DNA from: Bacteroidota bacterium
GTDB taxonomy: Bacteria; Bacteroidota; Bacteroidia; UBA8524
NCBI GenBank assembly: GCA_016124735.1
Contig: WGMZ01000031.1
Coordinates: forward strand, 121,992 to 185,991
Direction: 5' to 3'
Length of the DNA stretch: 64,000 nucleotides
Shown: piece by piece, positions 44,472-63,037 of the stretch
Numbering within the stretch: position 1 is the first letter of the stretch
Layout: each line of letters begins with the position of its first letter
Translations under genes and position numbers: made by a program
Notes under the pieces: generated by a model
Seen by the model: the letters and a program-made list of their open reading frames with translations, nothing else
Told to the model about the DNA's origin: nothing
The model's database searches: none

Positions 44472-44500
44472 AACCCGGCAAACGTCGGGTTTTTTGTTTT
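44472..44500 (+). terminator. rho-independent terminator after the acyl-CoA dehydrogenase gene
   Basis: AACCCGGC-AAAC-GTCGGGTTTTTTGTTTT. A 6-bp GC stem plus T-tract, 35 nt after the stop. Confidence 0.7.
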
Positions 44501-44514
44501 TCGGGAAAACTCAG

Positions 44515-44735
44515 CGAAATATTGTCACTCAGGCCCTCCGGGCCGAGTGACCTGCGATTTCTTTGCTCCGCTTAAGAGCGCTCCGGACTTTCCGGATCGA
44601 GCGCTTCAGGTTTCCGGAAAAAATCAACAGCTTAACATTCCTGCCAAATATTGTCACTCGGCCCGGAGGACCTGAGTGACCTGCGATTTCTTTGCTCCGC
44701 TTAATAGCGCTCCGGCCTTCCGGGCCGAGCGCTCC
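44515..44735. repeat. REP-like palindromic repeat doublet (two ~120-bp units, each with two GC-rich hairpins)
   Basis: Unit 1 (44515-44640) and unit 2 (44645-44735) share ATATTGTCACTC-[GGCCC..GGGCC]-GAGTGACCTGCGATTTCTTTGCTCCGCTTAA-AGCGCTCCGG...CCGG..GAGCGCT. Hairpin A is a 12-bp stem; hairpin B is built on the AGCGCT palindrome. Confidence 0.8.
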
Positions 44736-44810
44736 CAATCCTCTGAGTATTTTGACATTCCCTGGACTTTTGGACTCGTGATGTGTTCGAATCAGCTATA
44801 AATTGTCTGT

Positions 44811-45281
44811 ATGCAAACTTTCTTTTTTACTTGTGTCGCCACCTCCAGAAAGCCCATCTTTGATCGCCAAAACCTCGATTTCATTAATGCAATCATTCAA
44901 TGTTGCGAGTACTTTTCCTTACGCCCGAGTTTCTTGCTTCACGCTTTAAGCATAATGCCTAATCATATTCATTTCTTATATTCAGAAATAGACTGTAAAA
45001 CAGATTTTAATACCCGCTTTCTTCGATTCACAACCAAACAAATACTTTCTACAAATAATCTTAGGTTAAAACATGAAAGAGTATCCTTTACATCCAATTA
45101 TAATGACAGAAAAACTCAAGTTTGGAGACCAAGAAGCAAGCTAATCCTGGTACATAATAAGCAACAATATTTTGCAGTGAAGAGGTATATCCATTCAAAT
45201 CACCTCAAGGAATTTTGGAAAGGTGCCGCTTTCAATCAAAAATTCCCCAGTCTGACTTTTTCGCCAAGATTCTGGGATTGA
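44811..45281 (+). CDS. IS200/IS605-like HuH (Y1) transposase, REP-associated tyrosine transposase (RAYT) candidate
   Basis: 156 aa. N-terminal FHxTxxTxxRKPIF-like segment, an HIH (HuH) motif in MPNHIHFLY, and a C-terminal RYIHSN resembling the IS200 catalytic Tyr motif YIxNQ. Flanked on both sides by the same palindromic repeat. The stop codon lies 1 nt from the downstream repeat. Confidence 0.65.
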   Translation: MQTFFFTCVATSRKPIFDRQNLDFINAIIQCCEYFSLRPSFLLHALSIMPNHIHFLYSEIDCKTDFNTRFLRFTTKQILSTNNLRLKHERVSFTSNYNDRKTQVWRPRSKLILVHNKQQYFAVKRYIHSNHLKEFWKGAAFNQKFPSLTFSPRFWD

Positions 45282-45495
45282 TTGTCACTCGGCCCGGAGG
45301 GCCTGAGTGACCTGCGATTTCTTTGCTCCGCTTAATAGCGCTCCGGCCTTTCCGGATCGAGCGCTTCAGGTTTCCGGAAAAAATCAACAGATTAACATTC
45401 CAGCGAAATATTGTCACTCCGCCCGGAGGGCCTGAGTGACCTGCGATTTCTTTGCTCCGCTTAATAGCGCTCCGGCCTTCCGAGCTCAGAGCTCC
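45282..45495. repeat. REP-like palindromic repeat doublet (copies 3 and 4)
   Basis: Units at 45282-45401 and 45405-45495 are about 90% identical to units 1-2 and in the same orientation. Spurious ORFs 44529..44738 and 45232..45417 lie inside these repeats. Confidence 0.8.
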
Positions 45496-45517
45496 CTACA
45501 TTTTCTGGTAATTGTCT

Positions 45518-46246
45518 TTATAAAAGAATCCGAATACCAAAATTGGCGGAATATTGGACACTGGCATATTTAGTCTCATTCAACCAATTATTAAGAATCG
45601 TCTGATGTGGCCCATATAAGCCTTTTAATTCCTGTTTCCAGGCCAAACCTGTCCTGTCATTAAATGGGACCAGGATTCCAAGCTCACCAAAAACTTGAAA
45701 ATCGCAGCACTTCCAACTCATCAGAGAATAATTGTAGCCCATACGGAAAAACGAATAGATATTCCAGGTTGATCCTTTCCCTGTAAAAGTCCTATAAGCC
45801 AAATTACCAGAGGAATCACGCAAAGATGAATAACCCTCCAATCGAAAGGTATACGTTTGCCAACTCAATCCAAAATCAAGGTAAATCGAATTTTTCTTCT
45901 CTTTTCCAAATTTTCTCTGAAGTCCTGCAGATACCATACTACGCGATTGTTGTTCACTCCCTGTAAGAAAAAACATCGCATTTGTTGTCTGACTGAATGT
46001 TTGAGGATAATAGTATTGACCCGACTGAAAAAAATCCAACATTGTTCGAAGTTGCCAAAGGGAATCGAGTTTCCAATACTTACCAATTCCTGAGCCTATA
46101 TCATAATGTCCGGTTTTTATCGCATGCTTTTGTCCTGGCATAGTGGCAAAATAAAATCCTTCTTGTAAACTGAAGACTGTTTGACCATTTACATTGTTCG
46201 CCAGGAAAAAAGTTAAAATTAATACTACTATTCCTCCTTGTTTCAT
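45518..46246 (-). CDS. hypothetical outer-membrane beta-barrel-like protein
   Basis: 242 aa. Signal peptide (LILTFFLANNVNGQ). Alternating aromatic/polar pattern. Confidence 0.4.
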   Translation of the reverse strand: MKQGGIVVLILTFFLANNVNGQTVFSLQEGFYFATMPGQKHAIKTGHYDIGSGIGKYWKLDSLWQLRTMLDFFQSGQYYYPQTFSQTTNAMFFLTGSEQQSRSMVSAGLQRKFGKEKKNSIYLDFGLSWQTYTFRLEGYSSLRDSSGNLAYRTFTGKGSTWNIYSFFRMGYNYSLMSWKCCDFQVFGELGILVPFNDRTGLAWKQELKGLYGPHQTILNNWLNETKYASVQYSANFGIRILL

Positions 46247-47064
46247 TATTTCAGTTTGAATGGAATGCTTACCGAACCCACCGTCAGTGTTGCATCATTG
46301 TCGCAAGTACCGTTACCGTAATCGATTATTCTTGGAGTAATACCTGTTTTACTGATTTGAAGAACCCCTTTATCAATATATGCACATGCCAATGCTCTAT
46401 GTAGATTGCTTTGTATATCCAGATTGTATACGGCATTGGAGGAAGTAGTCAAGGTTGCTGAACCTTCCATCTCCCAGGCATCGTCGGTCCAGTTAGCTGG
46501 CGTTCCGCTTCCGGCAACCCAATGCATAATCCTGTTACAAATCCAGCCTACAGTTCCACCATTCAATGGTTTTATTACAGTGCCATTCACATCTACCTGC
46601 CAATGTGGATTACTGTTCGCATCCAACCCAAGATTGGTTACCATTTTGGTACCATTTAATCCATAGTCGTTCACATAATAATTGGAAGGAGTGATAGTAA
46701 TCACATTCCCGCTATCCCAATAGGTTTTGGTATAGGTAATGTCGAGGACTCCCCTTCTGAATCGATTGTCTTTACACAAACAGTTGCTGGAGCCAAAATC
46801 AACTTTAATTTTTTTGTTCGATTGATCCAGTGTTACCGTAGCACAGCCCGCACTTTTAAATGATGAAAGGCTGCCAGATTCCGCTTCATCTGCAATGGAT
46901 TTTAAATCTCCAAAATACTGTTCGGAGATAACCAGTTCCTGCCCCATAAGCAGGTCACCCGAGTTTTCAGGTTGCGAAGTAGTTGTTTTGTCTTTTTTAC
47001 AGCTCGCAAAAATGAGCACAGAGAGAACGGCGGAAAGTATTCCGCAATTTTTGGATATAGTCAT
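46246..47064 (-). CDS. hypothetical lipoprotein
   Basis: 272 aa. Lipobox IFASC. Ser/Thr/Asn-rich. Translationally coupled to the downstream OM protein gene (1-nt overlap). Confidence 0.45.
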   Translation of the reverse strand: MTISKNCGILSAVLSVLIFASCKKDKTTTSQPENSGDLLMGQELVISEQYFGDLKSIADEAESGSLSSFKSAGCATVTLDQSNKKIKVDFGSSNCLCKDNRFRRGVLDITYTKTYWDSGNVITITPSNYYVNDYGLNGTKMVTNLGLDANSNPHWQVDVNGTVIKPLNGGTVGWICNRIMHWVAGSGTPANWTDDAWEMEGSATLTTSSNAVYNLDIQSNLHRALACAYIDKGVLQISKTGITPRIIDYGNGTCDNDATLTVGSVSIPFKLK

Positions 47065-51240: not shown

Positions 51241-51314
51241 TTATTGTATGTTCATTTTGTCTTGATGTTTCGACTTGGCTCAGCATAAATTCCAAATGAA
51301 AGAAAAAATCAATT
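51241..51314. repeat. ~70-bp hairpin-bounded interspersed repeat, copy 1
   Basis: TTATTGTATGTTCATTTTGTCTTGATGTTTCGACTTGGCTCAGCATAAATTCCAAATGAAAGAAAAAATCAA. About 90% identical to 60961-61032. Terminal inverted repeat GTTCATTT...AAATGAA. Confidence 0.6.
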
Positions 51315-56659: not shown

Positions 56660-56675
56660 TTTGCTTTTCGAGATT

Positions 56676-57040
56676 TTTAACGCAGGACGCAAAAAGGGAA
56701 TGCTGGCGCACAACGGAGACGCGGTTGTGTTTGACACTGATTGCAAATTCTTTGAAAAAAAATGAACGCAGAGGACGCAAAATGGGAATGCTGGCGCACA
56801 ACGGAGACGCAGTTGATTTTGCTCGCTCAAATTTAGACGCGGGGACGCAAAAGGTTAAGCTTGCGCCAGACGGAGACGCGGTTTTGATTGCCGATGAATA
56901 TTTCATCCCAATAAATATTCGACGCGGAGACGCGGTTGTGCTTGACTCTGATTAATTCTTCATTGAAATAAATTTTGACGTGGGGACGCAATAATTTAAA
57001 CGCCTGCGCCTGAAGAAGACGTAGTTGTGTTAATGCGTTC
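56676..57040 (+). repeat. array of ~5 degenerate 57-86-bp repeats (family 2, forward orientation)
   Basis: Units begin at 56680, 56766, 56836, 56921 and 56978. Core: GACGC.GGGACGCAAAA...GCTGGCGCACAACGGAGACGCGGTTGTG. The array starts 17 nt after the ABC ATPase stop. Confidence 0.7.
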
Positions 57041-57119: not shown

Positions 57120-57518
57120 ATGAATCAGTTGGATAAAGCTAAAATTGAAAACCGAATAGCTACCAAAATTATTGAAGCAGCATTCGAGGTTTATGATCAA
57201 CTTGGGCCAGGGTTAATGGAAAGTGCCTATTCTTATTGCTTGATGTTGGAATTTAAAGAAAAAGGTTTGGCCTTTAAATCTGAACTGGCGTTACCCATTG
57301 AATATAAAAGCCACAAGCTAAACCATCATTACCGACTAGATTTTCTGGTCGAGGACAAAGTCGTAATCGAATTGAAAGCAACAGAATCGATTCATGAAGT
57401 GCATTATGCGCAACTGTTAACCTATTTGAAATTAAGTCGGCGTAAACTAGGACTATTGATCAACTTCCATTCTTCCTTCTTTAAATCAGGAATAAAACGA
57501 GTCGTCAACGGATTATAA
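57120..57518 (+). CDS. GxxExxY protein (PD-(D/E)XK-like small protein family)
   Basis: 132 aa. Family-defining G..ES.Y (MESAYSYCL) plus conserved D...E.K (DFLVEDKVVIELKA). Confidence 0.8.
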   Translation: MNQLDKAKIENRIATKIIEAAFEVYDQLGPGLMESAYSYCLMLEFKEKGLAFKSELALPIEYKSHKLNHHYRLDFLVEDKVVIELKATESIHEVHYAQLLTYLKLSRRKLGLLINFHSSFFKSGIKRVVNGL

Positions 57519-57548
57519 ATGACCCATCGAAAGAGAGAACTGCGCCTC

Positions 57549-57828
57549 CGTTGCGCGACAGCTTAATTCTCCTGCGTCTCCGTTAAAAATTCAAGCGATC
57601 ATGAATTTATCCGGGAAATAACTCTTTCTCACTATCAAAAAAACTGCGCCTCCGTCGTGCGACAGCCCAAATTATCCTGCGACTCCGCATTAACAATTCA
57701 AGCGAGCATAAATTTATCCGGGAAATAACTCTTTCTCACTATCAAAAAAACTGCGCCTCCGTCGGGCGTCAGCCTATAAACTTCTGCGACTCCGCGTCAA
57801 AAATTAGAGCGAGTAAAGAAAATGAAGC
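57549..57828 (-). repeat. array of 3 ~105-bp repeats (family 2, inverted orientation)
   Basis: Units at 57549, 57654 and 57760. The reverse complement aligns to the 56.7-kb array (…TTAAGCTGTCGCGCAACGGAGGCGCAG vs …TTAAGCTTGCGCCAGACGGAGACGCGG). R1 and R2 share an identical 40-bp tail. The array ends 2 nt before the stop of the M20 peptidase gene. Confidence 0.75.
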
Positions 57829-60960: not shown

Positions 60961-61032
60961 TTGGTTGTGTTCATTTTGCCTTGATGCTTCGACCTCGCTC
61001 AGCATAAATTCCAAATGAACCAAAAAATCAAG
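60961..61032. repeat. ~70-bp hairpin-bounded interspersed repeat, copy 2
   Basis: TTGGTTGTGTTCATTTTGCCTTGATGCTTCGACCTCGCTCAGCATAAATTCCAAATGAACCAAAAAATCAA. Lies 8 nt after the dnaG stop. Confidence 0.6.
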
Positions 61033-62949: not shown

Positions 62950-63032
62950 CTAACTATTCGCAAATAAAACCGCGACTCCGTTTGGCGCCAGCCAAAGCAA
63001 TTGCGACTCCGCGTTAAAAAATTTGAGCGAGC
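62950..63032 (-). repeat. solo copy of the family-2 repeat
   Basis: …GCGACTCCGTTTGGCGCCAGCCAAAGCAATTGCGACTCCGCGTTAAAAAATTTGAGCGAGCAG aligns with the 57.5-kb units. Lies 5 nt after the prfC stop. Confidence 0.55.
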
Positions 63033-63037
63033 AGATA

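What the first reader, a model, noticed from the sequence alone, without database searches (positions are those of the whole stretch)
44515..45495. REPtron-like unit: a HuH/Y1 transposase-like gene bracketed by doublets of a two-hairpin palindromic repeat
Four copies of a ~120-bp unit (two upstream, two downstream of ORF 44811..45281) are ~90% identical. Each contains a 12-bp GC-rich hairpin (GTCACTC-GGCCC-gga-GGGCC-GAGTGAC) and a second hairpin built on AGCGCT…AGCGCT. The enclosed 156-aa ORF has HuH (HIH) and Tyr (RYIHSN) motifs of IS200/IS605 TnpA and RAYT proteins. The combination of palindromic repeats with a Y1 transposase is the defining architecture of REP/RAYT systems. Those are documented mostly in Proteobacteria, so a Bacteroidota example would be worth characterising. 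Two details stand out. The flanking doublets are in direct rather than inverted orientation. In copy 1 hairpin A is flipped (AGGCCC-tcc-GGGCC versus GGCCC-gga-GGGCC in copies 2-4) while its flanks keep their orientation. That flip is expected of a hairpin recognised as a structure rather than a sequence.
Basis: partly seen in the sequence, partly recalled or inferred. Interest (0 to 1): 0.7.

Follow-up and report, generated by a model that had tools for sequence, protein, structure and literature searches.

The report
Divergent Bacteroidota REPtron (RAYT plus hairpins)
A small single-copy gene for a domesticated single-strand-DNA transposase (RAYT) sits between four copies of its own palindromic repeat; this arrangement was already described for Bacteroidetes in 2017-2018, so this is a divergent new example, not a new kind of system.

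Summary
Four copies of a ~93-nt core (period 129 nt) form two 240-nt direct doublets around ORF 44811..45281, and copy 1's 28-nt hairpin is the exact reverse complement of copy 3's. The ORF is a genuine but divergent Y1/HUH enzyme. HUH (NHIH) and Tyr (YIHSN) are invariant among relatives, and the AlphaFold model (pLDDT 88) best matches E. coli TnpA_REP (4ER8). It scores below the curated Pfam and NCBIfam cut-offs. All five close homologues (35-48% identical to it) are also bracketed by lineage-specific two-hairpin arrays, as are 47 of 52 distant relatives (controls 2/52 and 0/43). Three close lineages share synteny. So this is a REPtron. Two refinements follow. Hairpin B is a diverged inverted paralogue of hairpin A, so each unit is a BIME/REPIN-like inverted REP pair. 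The flip does not support orientation-independent, structure-only recognition, because characterised RAYTs are strand-specific. Bacteroidetes RAYTs with atypical flanking hairpins are already published (Quentin 2018 subclass 2.6, Bertels 2017 group 5). No copy of the repeat lies elsewhere in the 64 kb, and genome-wide dispersal could not be tested. Verdict: new member of a known kind, modest interest.

The parts
44517..44610 (+). Repeat copy c1 (A-type core). Hairpin A is at 44524-44551 in flipped orientation (loop TCC, bulged A on the 5' side). Hairpin B is at 44577-44605.
   Evidence: (I1)
44611..44645 (+). Spacer between c1 and c2. It is homologous to the c3-c4 spacer at 45371-45405.
   Evidence: c1 vs c3: 93% over 122 nt
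44646..44738 (+). Repeat copy c2 (B-type core). Hairpin A is at 44653-44680 (loop GGA, bulged T on the 3' side). Hairpin B is at 44706-44733 and is the best-preserved inverted paralogue of hairpin A.
   Evidence: (I2, I5)
44811..45281 (+). Y1/HUH tyrosine transposase-like gene (RAYT / TnpA_REP-like, 156 aa). HUH is at H52/H54 and the catalytic Tyr at Y126. The stop codon lies 3 nt before hairpin A of c3.
45277..45370 (+). Repeat copy c3 (A-type core). Hairpin A is at 45284-45311 and hairpin B at 45337-45365. The doublet homology begins at 45257, inside the last 25 nt of the ORF.
   Evidence: (D1)
45371..45405 (+). Spacer between c3 and c4.
45406..45498 (+). Repeat copy c4 (B-type core). Hairpin A is at 45413-45440. 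Hairpin B at 45466-45493 is degenerate.

Best explanation
This is a REPtron. It consists of a single-copy, domesticated Y1/HUH tyrosine transposase (RAYT / TnpA_REP) of the Bacteroidetes-dominated lineage (Quentin subclass 2.6, Bertels group 5, or a short-tailed offshoot of it) together with its cognate REP sequences.

Each ~93-nt unit is a pair of diverged REP hairpins, A and B, in opposite orientation (BIME/REPIN-like). Two such pairs lie head to tail on each side of the gene.

The mechanism is inferred from E. coli TnpA_REP and IS608/ISDra2 TnpA. The enzyme binds one strand-specific form of the folded hairpin in single-stranded DNA. It cleaves next to the hairpin through Y126, with metal held by H52/H54, forms a 5'-phosphotyrosine intermediate, and rejoins strands. 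That activity, together with slippage and recombination between copies, amplifies and homogenises the REP pairs next to the gene.

Shown here: the protein fold and motifs, the repeat anatomy, conservation of the architecture, and co-divergence of gene and repeats in relatives. Inferred: enzymatic activity on these hairpins, which strand is the substrate, and any spread beyond this locus.
For: Protein:
- HUH and Tyr motifs are invariant across relatives (66-sequence alignment).
- NCBIfam REP_Tyr_transpos is the only credible hit (6e-14); the one other match at E<=1 was 0.08. All 15 aligned relatives hit that model, the best at 1.5e-42.
- The family profile's best solved match is E. coli TnpA_REP 4ER8 (1.4e-9), ahead of IS200-type transposases.
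- The AF2 model has pLDDT 88.3. Its best Foldseek hit is 4er8_A (E 9e-7, TM 0.59, rmsd 3.1), followed by ISDra2 and IS608 TnpA.

Architecture:
- All five close homologues are bracketed by lineage-specific two-hairpin direct arrays on the gene strand: P0056, P0057, P0003, P0004 and P0005, 35-48% identical by pairwise alignment.
- 47 of 52 distant relatives share significant repeats between their two flanks. Controls: 2 of 52 for mismatched pairs and 0 of 43 for far flanks.

Domestication:
- AIRS...Y1...RmuC synteny holds across three lineages whose proteins are only 42-67% identical.
- There is one Y1 gene in the window and one contig in the database.

REP pairs:
- Hairpin B matches hairpin A at 20 of 24 positions when A is read in copy 1's orientation, and the outer-stem changes are compensatory.
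- Searches (I4, I5; the minus-strand minimum-energy fold pairs A with B) agree.

Literature:
- Subclass 2.6 motifs, host phylum and REP examples are in PMC6006769.
Against: - The ORF is below both curated cut-offs: Pfam Y1_Tnp 19.1 vs 23 bits, and NF047646 52.1 vs 80 bits.
- It lacks the subclass 2.6 SS tail and has YIHSNH instead of YIH[QN]NP.
- No repeat copy lies outside the gene's flanks in 64 kb.
- None is found in representative genomes or JGI metagenomes (chance hits only).
- In the close relatives the repeats are likewise confined to the flanks within 6-10 kb.
- Genome-wide dispersal, the property that gives REPs their name, is therefore not shown.
- There is no GT[AG]G foot.
- There is no biochemical evidence for any subclass 2.6 enzyme.
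Confidence: 0.78

Rival explanations
1. Relic or idle REPtron. The gene is a RAYT descendant, but the flanking arrays are now maintained only by replication slippage, unequal recombination and gene conversion. They act, if at all, as terminators, mRNA stabilisers or regulators of the gene, and the enzyme no longer mobilises them.
For: The copies are confined to the gene's flanks in the window and in all close relatives. The array size differs between near-identical loci L059 and L060, as slippage would produce. The downstream array starts 3-61 nt after the stop codon in every member. The C-terminal tail is shortened.
Against: The catalytic residues and a confident fold are retained over 35-67% protein divergence, which argues for continued selection on the enzyme. 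Repeat sequences co-diverge with the protein. There is a published precedent of active REPtrons whose REPs cluster near the gene (Marinomonas Ma and Mb, PMC8266576).
Confidence: 0.15
2. An autonomous IS200/IS605-type insertion sequence. The direct, same-strand hairpins are its left and right ends, and the whole unit transposes.
For: The hairpins lie on the same strand at both ends, as in IS608. The profile has weak hits to IS200 models (3 of 15 relatives). The identical protein P0057 is found with two different downstream contexts.
Against: The best sequence and fold matches are to TnpA_REP, not IS200 TnpA. The Tyr motif is YIHSNH, with no Q at the IS200 Y---Q position. The gene is single-copy. 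The two 'ends' are the same 240-nt doublet at 88-93% identity, not distinct LE and RE. The locus is syntenic across divergent lineages. The L059/L060 difference is explained by an IS91 fragment abutting the array.
Confidence: 0.05
3. Chance segmental duplication or assembly artefact, unrelated to the enclosed gene.
For: Short-read MAG assemblies can mis-join repeats, and the Logan contigs break at the repeats.
Against: The outer junctions are identical in two assemblies. The same architecture recurs in every close homologue from independent samples and in 47 of 52 distant ones, against 2 of 52 controls.
Confidence: 0.02

Closest known systems
TnpA_Y1 subclass 2.6 REPtrons of Bacteroidetes (Quentin et al. 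2018, PMC6006769), equivalent to RAYT group 5 (Bertels et al. 2017, PMC5581495)
   Same: The host phylum and the NH[LIV]H HuH motif match. The Tyr motif is of the YIHxN type, and the HuH-to-Tyr spacing is extended. The gene is flanked by G/C hairpins with TCC-type loops and no GT[AG]G foot. The gene is at low copy number.
   Different: The protein is shorter (156 vs a mean of 179 aa). The C-terminal SS motif is missing. The Tyr motif reads NH instead of NP. The ORF and its five nearest relatives form a small, deeply separated clade: bit scores fall from 181 to 104 after them. The REPs are embedded in long composite units (84-197 nt periods) arrayed head to tail on both sides. No dispersed copies were seen here.
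E. coli REPtron / TnpA_REP with BIMEs (Ton-Hoang 2012; Messing 2012, PDB 4ER8; Corneloup 2021, PMC8266576)
   Same: It is the closest solved structure. It is a single domesticated Y1 gene flanked by pairs of related REP variants in inverted orientation, and the pairs can be arrayed in tandem.
   Different: Protein identity is only 25%. There is no GTAG foot. The stem and loop sequences are different. E. coli REPs are dispersed in hundreds of copies, whereas here there are four, all local.
Marinomonas sp. MWYL1 REPtrons Ma and Mb (PMC8266576)
   Same: The REPs are concentrated next to the tnpA_REP gene and are not spread genome-wide.
   Different: These belong to groups 2 and 3 in Proteobacteria and have GTAG-tagged REPs.
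IS200/IS605 insertion sequences (IS608, ISDra2)
   Same: Same HUH/Y1 catalytic fold. The enzyme recognises folded hairpins in single-stranded DNA. The hairpins lie on the same strand on both sides of the gene.
   Different: Those elements are multi-copy and mobile, have distinct left and right ends, and carry a Y---Q motif. None of this is seen here.

Membership tests
REPtron (RAYT / TnpA_REP plus cognate REPs) | Y1 HUH protein with an HuH metal-binding motif and a single catalytic Tyr on the IS200-like fold | tested here: met
   MPNHIH and YIHSN are invariant in the alignments. The AF2 model has pLDDT 88, and its best Foldseek hit is 4er8_A at E 9e-7.
REPtron (RAYT / TnpA_REP plus cognate REPs) | Protein reaches the curated family thresholds (NCBIfam NF047646 at 80 bits; Pfam PF01797 at 23 bits) | tested here: not met
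   The ORF scores 52.1 and 19.1 bits. All 15 aligned relatives hit NF047646 at E<=0.001 (best 1.5e-42) and 13 of 15 hit PF01797 at E<=0.01. The ORF is therefore a divergent member.
REPtron (RAYT / TnpA_REP plus cognate REPs) | Gene immediately flanked by copies of a palindromic repeat specific to that gene lineage | tested here: met
   There are four copies here. All five close homologues are flanked in the same way, as are 47 of 52 distant relatives against 2 of 52 controls.
REPtron (RAYT / TnpA_REP plus cognate REPs) | The same REPs dispersed in extragenic space across the genome | tested here: inconclusive
   There are zero copies outside the flanks in 64 kb. The rest of the 200-kb contig and of the MAG could not be reached. 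The genome and metagenome scans were negative or gave chance hits. In distant relatives, 9 of 43 loci show a copy more than 1.5 kb away.
REPtron (RAYT / TnpA_REP plus cognate REPs) | Single-copy, vertically inherited (domesticated) gene | tested here: met
   There is one Y1 gene in the window and one contig in the database. AIRS...Y1...RmuC synteny holds across lineages at 42-67% protein identity. The copy number in the whole genome was not checked.
REPtron (RAYT / TnpA_REP plus cognate REPs) | Conserved 5' GT[AG]G foot on the REP | tested here: not met
   The hairpin A flanks are AAATATT on one side and CTGCGA (GCAG on the minus strand) on the other. The foot is also absent from published subclass 2.6 REPs.
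REPtron (RAYT / TnpA_REP plus cognate REPs) | Strand-specific cleavage and rejoining of single-stranded REP DNA by the protein | not testable with these tools
   This needs biochemistry, such as the CST assay of PMC8266576.
TnpA_Y1 subclass 2.6 / RAYT group 5 | HuH motif NH[LIV]H | tested here: met
   NHIH at residues 51-54.
TnpA_Y1 subclass 2.6 / RAYT group 5 | Tyr motif YIH[QN]NP | tested here: not met
   The ORF has YIHSNH. Relatives have YIHxNP.
TnpA_Y1 subclass 2.6 / RAYT group 5 | Insertion between helix C and strand 4, giving a long HuH-to-Tyr distance (median 82 aa) | tested here: inconclusive
   H52 to Y126 is 74 aa. This is longer than the 58-67 typical of other subclasses and shorter than the 2.6 median. 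The ORF aligns without a gap to the 170-180-aa relatives across this region.
TnpA_Y1 subclass 2.6 / RAYT group 5 | C-terminal extension of about 29 aa with a conserved SS motif | tested here: not met
   No SS motif is present. Residues 144-156 have pLDDT below 50. The tail is also missing in P0002, P0003 and P0005 and present in P0004, and missing in P0056 and P0057 (sequences).
TnpA_Y1 subclass 2.6 / RAYT group 5 | Bacteroidetes host and atypical flanking hairpins | tested here: met
   The source record is named 'MAG: Bacteroidetes bacterium'. Relatives are mostly from Chitinophagales, Sphingobacteriales and Cytophagales. The hairpins resemble the Table S1 REPs.
TnpA_Y1 subclass 2.6 / RAYT group 5 | Assignment by the authors' subclass HMM profiles or phylogeny | not testable with these tools
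IS200/IS605 insertion sequence | Multiple near-identical copies, distinct LE and RE ends, and a Y---Q Tyr motif | tested here: not met
   The gene is single-copy. Both flanks are the same 240-nt doublet. The motif is YIHSNH. IS200-type structures match less well than 4ER8.

The most novel reading that the evidence does not exclude
The ORF and its handful of relatives (P0002-P0005, P0056, P0057) may form a distinct short-tailed RAYT lineage. In it, the REP pairs would be amplified only in cis, as head-to-tail arrays abutting both ends of the gene, with the stop codon within a few to about 60 nt of the first downstream hairpin, and would never disperse. That would make it either a captured early or arrested stage of REP proliferation, or a self-contained locus in which the enzyme works on its own flanks, for example in copy-number control or regulation through local single-stranded DNA processing.
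Probability: 0.15. Interest if true: 0.5.

Novelty: new member of a known kind. Interest (0 to 1): 0.3.

Why it matters
No enzyme of the Bacteroidetes RAYT lineage (subclass 2.6 / group 5) has been studied biochemically, and its REPs were found only by manual inspection. This locus and its relatives provide clean gene-and-hairpin sets that co-diverge. They could be used to ask how a RAYT without a GTAG foot recognises its substrate, and whether REP pairs first multiply next to their gene before spreading. The locus also shows that NCBI's annotation left this divergent RAYT as 'hypothetical protein'. Beyond that, it confirms published knowledge and does not change it.

Tried and rejected
- An exact 27-nt scan of the repeat in 185,579 representative genomes gave 0 hits.
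- A degenerate hairpin scan of JGI metagenomes gave 12 hits. All are chance: only the arms match.
- Looking up the ORF in the assembly index found nothing on record.
- The indexed homology search with the ORF alone returned only the ORF itself. The exhaustive HMMER search was needed to find relatives.
- A presence/absence comparison in related strains failed, because the 242-aa downstream neighbour has no homologue in 5.8 billion proteins.
- Rfam gave no credible RNA family for the repeat region.
- PHROGs and PADLOC gave only noise for the ORF.
- GC skew over 64 kb was too noisy to assign leading and lagging strands.
- The idea that P0057's two genomic contexts show the whole unit moving was rejected. 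The loci are colinear through the gene and inner arrays, and L059's array ends at a truncated IS91 transposase.
- The idea that the repeat is a CRISPR-like or coding element was rejected. There are no unique spacers, and the 41-69-aa ORFs inside the repeats are just repeat translations.
Full report

Yes. The region holds four + strand copies of a repeat. The conserved cores lie at 44517-44610, 44646-44738, 45277-45370 and 45406-45498. Within each pair the start-to-start spacing is 129 nt.

The pairs form 240-nt direct doublets at 44497-44736 and 45257-45496. These are 88% identical ungapped and 92.6% identical over 217 nt by blastn. ORF 44811..45281 (156 aa) lies between them.

The hairpin motif GTCACTC-N14-GAGTGAC occurs 4 times in the window against 0.11 expected. 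The 24-nt linker CTGCGATTTCTTTGCTCCGCTTAA occurs 4 times against 0 expected. Hairpin A folds as a 7+5 bp stem with one bulged base (dG -11.7 kcal/mol, z = -4.9). Hairpin B folds at -9.5 to -13 kcal/mol.

Copy 1's 28-nt hairpin is the exact reverse complement of copy 3's (pair I1), while both of its flanks stay in direct register. Read in direct register, the two hairpins differ at 8 of 28 positions, so this is one inversion event and not a set of point changes.

An independent Logan assembly of run SRR10063242 carries the same upstream and downstream genes. Its contigs end inside copy 1 and copy 4. The outer junctions are therefore reproducible, and the assembly graph branches at the repeats.

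The units are not all equivalent. c1 and c3 share a 35-nt spacer, and c2 and c4 do not.

**2. The protein**

On its own the ORF is a weak match. Pfam Y1_Tnp gives 19.1 bits against a cut-off of 23. NCBIfam REP_Tyr_transpos (NF047646) gives 52.1 bits and E 6e-14 against a cut-off of 80. NCBI left it as 'hypothetical protein GC180_09665' from a Bacteroidetes MAG.

An exhaustive HMMER scan of 1.84 billion cluster representatives found only 55 relatives at E <= 1e-3, and one besides the ORF itself below 1e-30. In alignments, M49, H52, H54 (MPNHIH), W105, Y126 and N130 (YIHxN) are invariant.

All 15 aligned relatives hit REP_Tyr_transpos, the best at 1.5e-42. Thirteen hit Y1_Tnp. The family profile's best solved relative is E. 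coli TnpA_REP (4ER8, 1.4e-9), ahead of IS200-type transposases.

An AlphaFold model built on 66 sequences is confident (pLDDT 88.3, pTM 0.83), except for residues 144-156. Foldseek ranks 4er8_A first (E 9e-7, TM 0.59, rmsd 3.1 A, 25% identity), followed by ISDra2 and IS608 TnpA. The window holds no second Y1 gene.

**3. Are the flanking repeats tied to the gene?**

This was tested in relatives. The close clade is tiny: P0056, P0057, P0003, P0004 and P0005 (P0002 is known only from the exhaustive search). Bit scores then drop from 181 to 104.

All five close homologues whose loci could be fetched sit in long intergenic gaps. All are bracketed on both sides by head-to-tail arrays of a two-hairpin unit on the gene's strand. 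Examples are 10 copies with periods of 109 and 197 nt in L060, 6 copies with periods of 84-86 nt in L064, a 260-nt doublet at 96% identity in L057, and periods of 154-158 nt in L063. The repeat sequences differ between lineages. They are similar between the two most similar proteins, P0057 and P0003 at 67% identity, so gene and repeats co-diverge.

Among 52 distant relatives from representative genomes, 47 share significant repeats between their own upstream and downstream flanks. The controls are 2 of 52 for mismatched pairs and 0 of 43 for distant flanks of the same locus.

The gene also behaves as a resident and not as a mobile element. AIRS...Y1...RmuC/AMP-ligase synteny holds across three lineages whose proteins are only 42-67% identical. 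The one apparent exception is identical P0057 with two different downstream contexts. It is explained by a truncated IS91 transposase (Zn_Tnp_IS91, 1.3e-30) abutting the end of the array in L059.

**4. What the two-hairpin unit is**

Hairpin B is not an unrelated second hairpin. In c2 it matches hairpin A at 20 of 24 positions when A is read in copy 1's orientation, which is the reverse complement of A in c2-c4. The three outer-stem differences are compensatory pairs: G-C to A-T, T-A to G-C, and A-T to G-C.

The repeat finder had already listed these as inverted pairs I4 and I5. On the minus strand, the minimum-energy fold of c2 pairs A with B in one long stem. B also has the same layout as copy 1's A: a 7-bp outer stem, a bulged base on the 5' side, and an inner stem.

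So each unit is a pair of diverged REPs in opposite orientation, and the pairs are repeated head to tail. This is the logic of BIME clusters and REPINs. The relatives show the same pattern most clearly in L063 (GGCGTCCCCGCC and GGCGGGGACGCC within one unit) and L068 (inverted copies 18 nt apart).

**5. The flip**

In copy 1, hairpins A and B are in the same orientation. In c2-c4 they are inverted relative to each other.

Published work on TnpA_REP points the other way. The enzymes are strand-specific, the inverted form (iREP) is neither bound nor cleaved, and loop and bulge features matter (PMC8266576). My inference, from general knowledge of palindrome mutagenesis, is that the flip is a mutational event typical of near-perfect palindromes: template switching within the hairpin, or conversion from an inverted copy. 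It is expected to move the substrate form of that hairpin to the other strand. It is a curiosity and does not support a structure-only reading.

**6. Comparison with what is known**

Quentin et al. 2018 (PMC6006769) classify TnpA_Y1 proteins and define subclass 2.6, to which all 40 of Bertels's group 5 sequences were assigned. Its features are:
- mostly Bacteroidetes hosts;
- mean length 179 aa;
- HuH motif NH[LIV]H and Tyr motif YIH[QN]NP;
- a 21-aa insertion between helix C and strand 4;
- a 29-aa tail with an SS motif;

Their Table S1 lists REPs such as GCTAG-CGCGAGCG-TCC-CGCTCGTG and GCTG-TCGCTTGGC-TCT-GCCGAGTGAC. Compare hairpin A on the minus strand of c2-c4, GCAG-GTCACTCAGGCCC-TCC-GGGCCGAGTGAC. 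Compare also GCTG-GTTGGCG-TCC... in L064 and GCTAG-CGGGTTGGTG-TCC-... in L057.

Bertels et al. 2017 report that group 5 genes are flanked by 16-mers with about 31 replicon-wide occurrences (PMC5581495). A Bacteroidota REPtron is therefore published knowledge.

The consensus of the wider family found here fits subclass 2.6 (MPNHIHLIW, YIHNNP, SSAxFY). The window's ORF fits only in part. NHIH is met. YIHSNH is not the consensus. The SS tail is absent. The HuH-to-Tyr spacing is 74 aa, between the usual 58-67 and the 2.6 median of 82. The ORF and most of its close clade look like a short-tailed offshoot. I could not run the authors' profiles, so formal assignment remains open.

**7. What is missing**

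Dispersal has not been shown. No copy of the repeat, even a diverged one, lies outside the gene's flanks in the 64 kb (nhmmer and blastn). The scan of representative genomes found nothing, and the metagenome scan found only chance matches. In the close relatives every copy lies in the flanks within 6-10 kb.

A 64-kb window cannot settle this. There is a published precedent for REPs concentrated beside their gene: Marinomonas REPtrons Ma and Mb, interpreted as recent local multiplication. In the wider family here, 9 of 43 loci show a flank repeat recurring more than 1.5 kb away.

The ORF is not in the contig index, and its neighbour has no homologues, so no related strain could be compared.

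**8. Mechanism**

Best supported is a domesticated RAYT acting on single-stranded, folded REP DNA. H52 and H54 hold the metal. Y126 makes the 5'-phosphotyrosine link. Cleavage and rejoining occur next to one strand-specific form of the hairpin. Local amplification and homogenisation of REP pairs follow.

The protein fold, the motifs, the repeat anatomy and the gene-repeat co-divergence are shown. Everything enzymatic is inferred from E. coli TnpA_REP and IS608/ISDra2.

The rivals are:
- an idle REPtron whose arrays persist by slippage and serve as terminators or stabilisers (0.15);
- an autonomous IS200/IS605 element (0.05), contradicted by single copy, synteny, identical flanks and the Tyr motif;
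- an artefact or chance duplication (0.02).

**9. Verdict**

The finding is real and correctly recognised as REPtron-like. It belongs to a kind already described in Bacteroidetes. Its particular features are a short divergent enzyme below annotation thresholds, REP pairs in long composite units, arrays abutting the stop codon, and no dispersal seen. These make it a useful new member, and possibly a distinct sub-lineage. Interest is 0.3.

Noticed in passing
window 56673-57025 (- strand copies), 57538-57817 and 62968-63035 (+ strand copies); gene 57120-57518 (+): A second, unrelated-looking repeat family (~70-nt core, two small hairpins). About 5 minus-strand copies lie upstream and 3 plus-strand tandem copies (period 107) lie downstream of a PD-(D/E)XK nuclease gene (Pfam PDDEXK_3, 1.3e-41). 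A lone copy lies 5 kb away. This gives a REPtron-like inverted bracket around a non-HUH nuclease gene. No paper linking PDDEXK_3/GxxExxY genes to flanking repeats was found.
   Followed up: partly
window 44552-44575 vs 57570-57590 and 63003-63020: The linker of the main unit (CCTGCGA...CTCCGCTTAA) shares the ordered motifs CCTGCGA and CTCCGC(G)TTAA with the second repeat family. nhmmer sees this only weakly (E 1.3). It may indicate distant common ancestry of the two families, or it may be coincidence.
   Followed up: no
window 51249-51312 and 60968-61031: A 64-nt direct repeat pair at 90.6% identity, 9.7 kb apart. It was not examined.
   Followed up: no
L081 (ends at window ~44574), L082 (ends at window ~45453): Logan contigs of run SRR10063242 stop inside repeat copies c1 and c4. 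The 11.4-kb contig that carries the downstream genes should end near 56.8 kb, where the second repeat family starts. So both repeat families appear to break short-read assemblies.
   Followed up: partly
L059 6100-6402: A truncated IS91-family transposase (Zn_Tnp_IS91, 1.3e-30) directly abuts the end of the REP array downstream of the P0057 gene. It replaces the RmuC context seen in L060. This looks like an IS insertion or rearrangement at a REP array.
   Followed up: yes
window 45257-45283 vs 44497-44523; L059, L063, L064, L068 gene ends: The doublet homology starts inside the last 25 nt of the ORF. In every close relative the first downstream hairpin begins 3-61 nt after the stop codon. Most of the close clade ends in a conserved R-x-W or N-W motif instead of the SS tail. 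This suggests that the gene's 3' end and the first repeat are coupled.
   Followed up: partly
window 45518-47064 (-): The two genes downstream of the REPtron (242 and 272 aa) have no Pfam family. The 242-aa protein has no homologue other than itself in 5.8 billion proteins. This lineage is very poorly sampled.
   Followed up: partly
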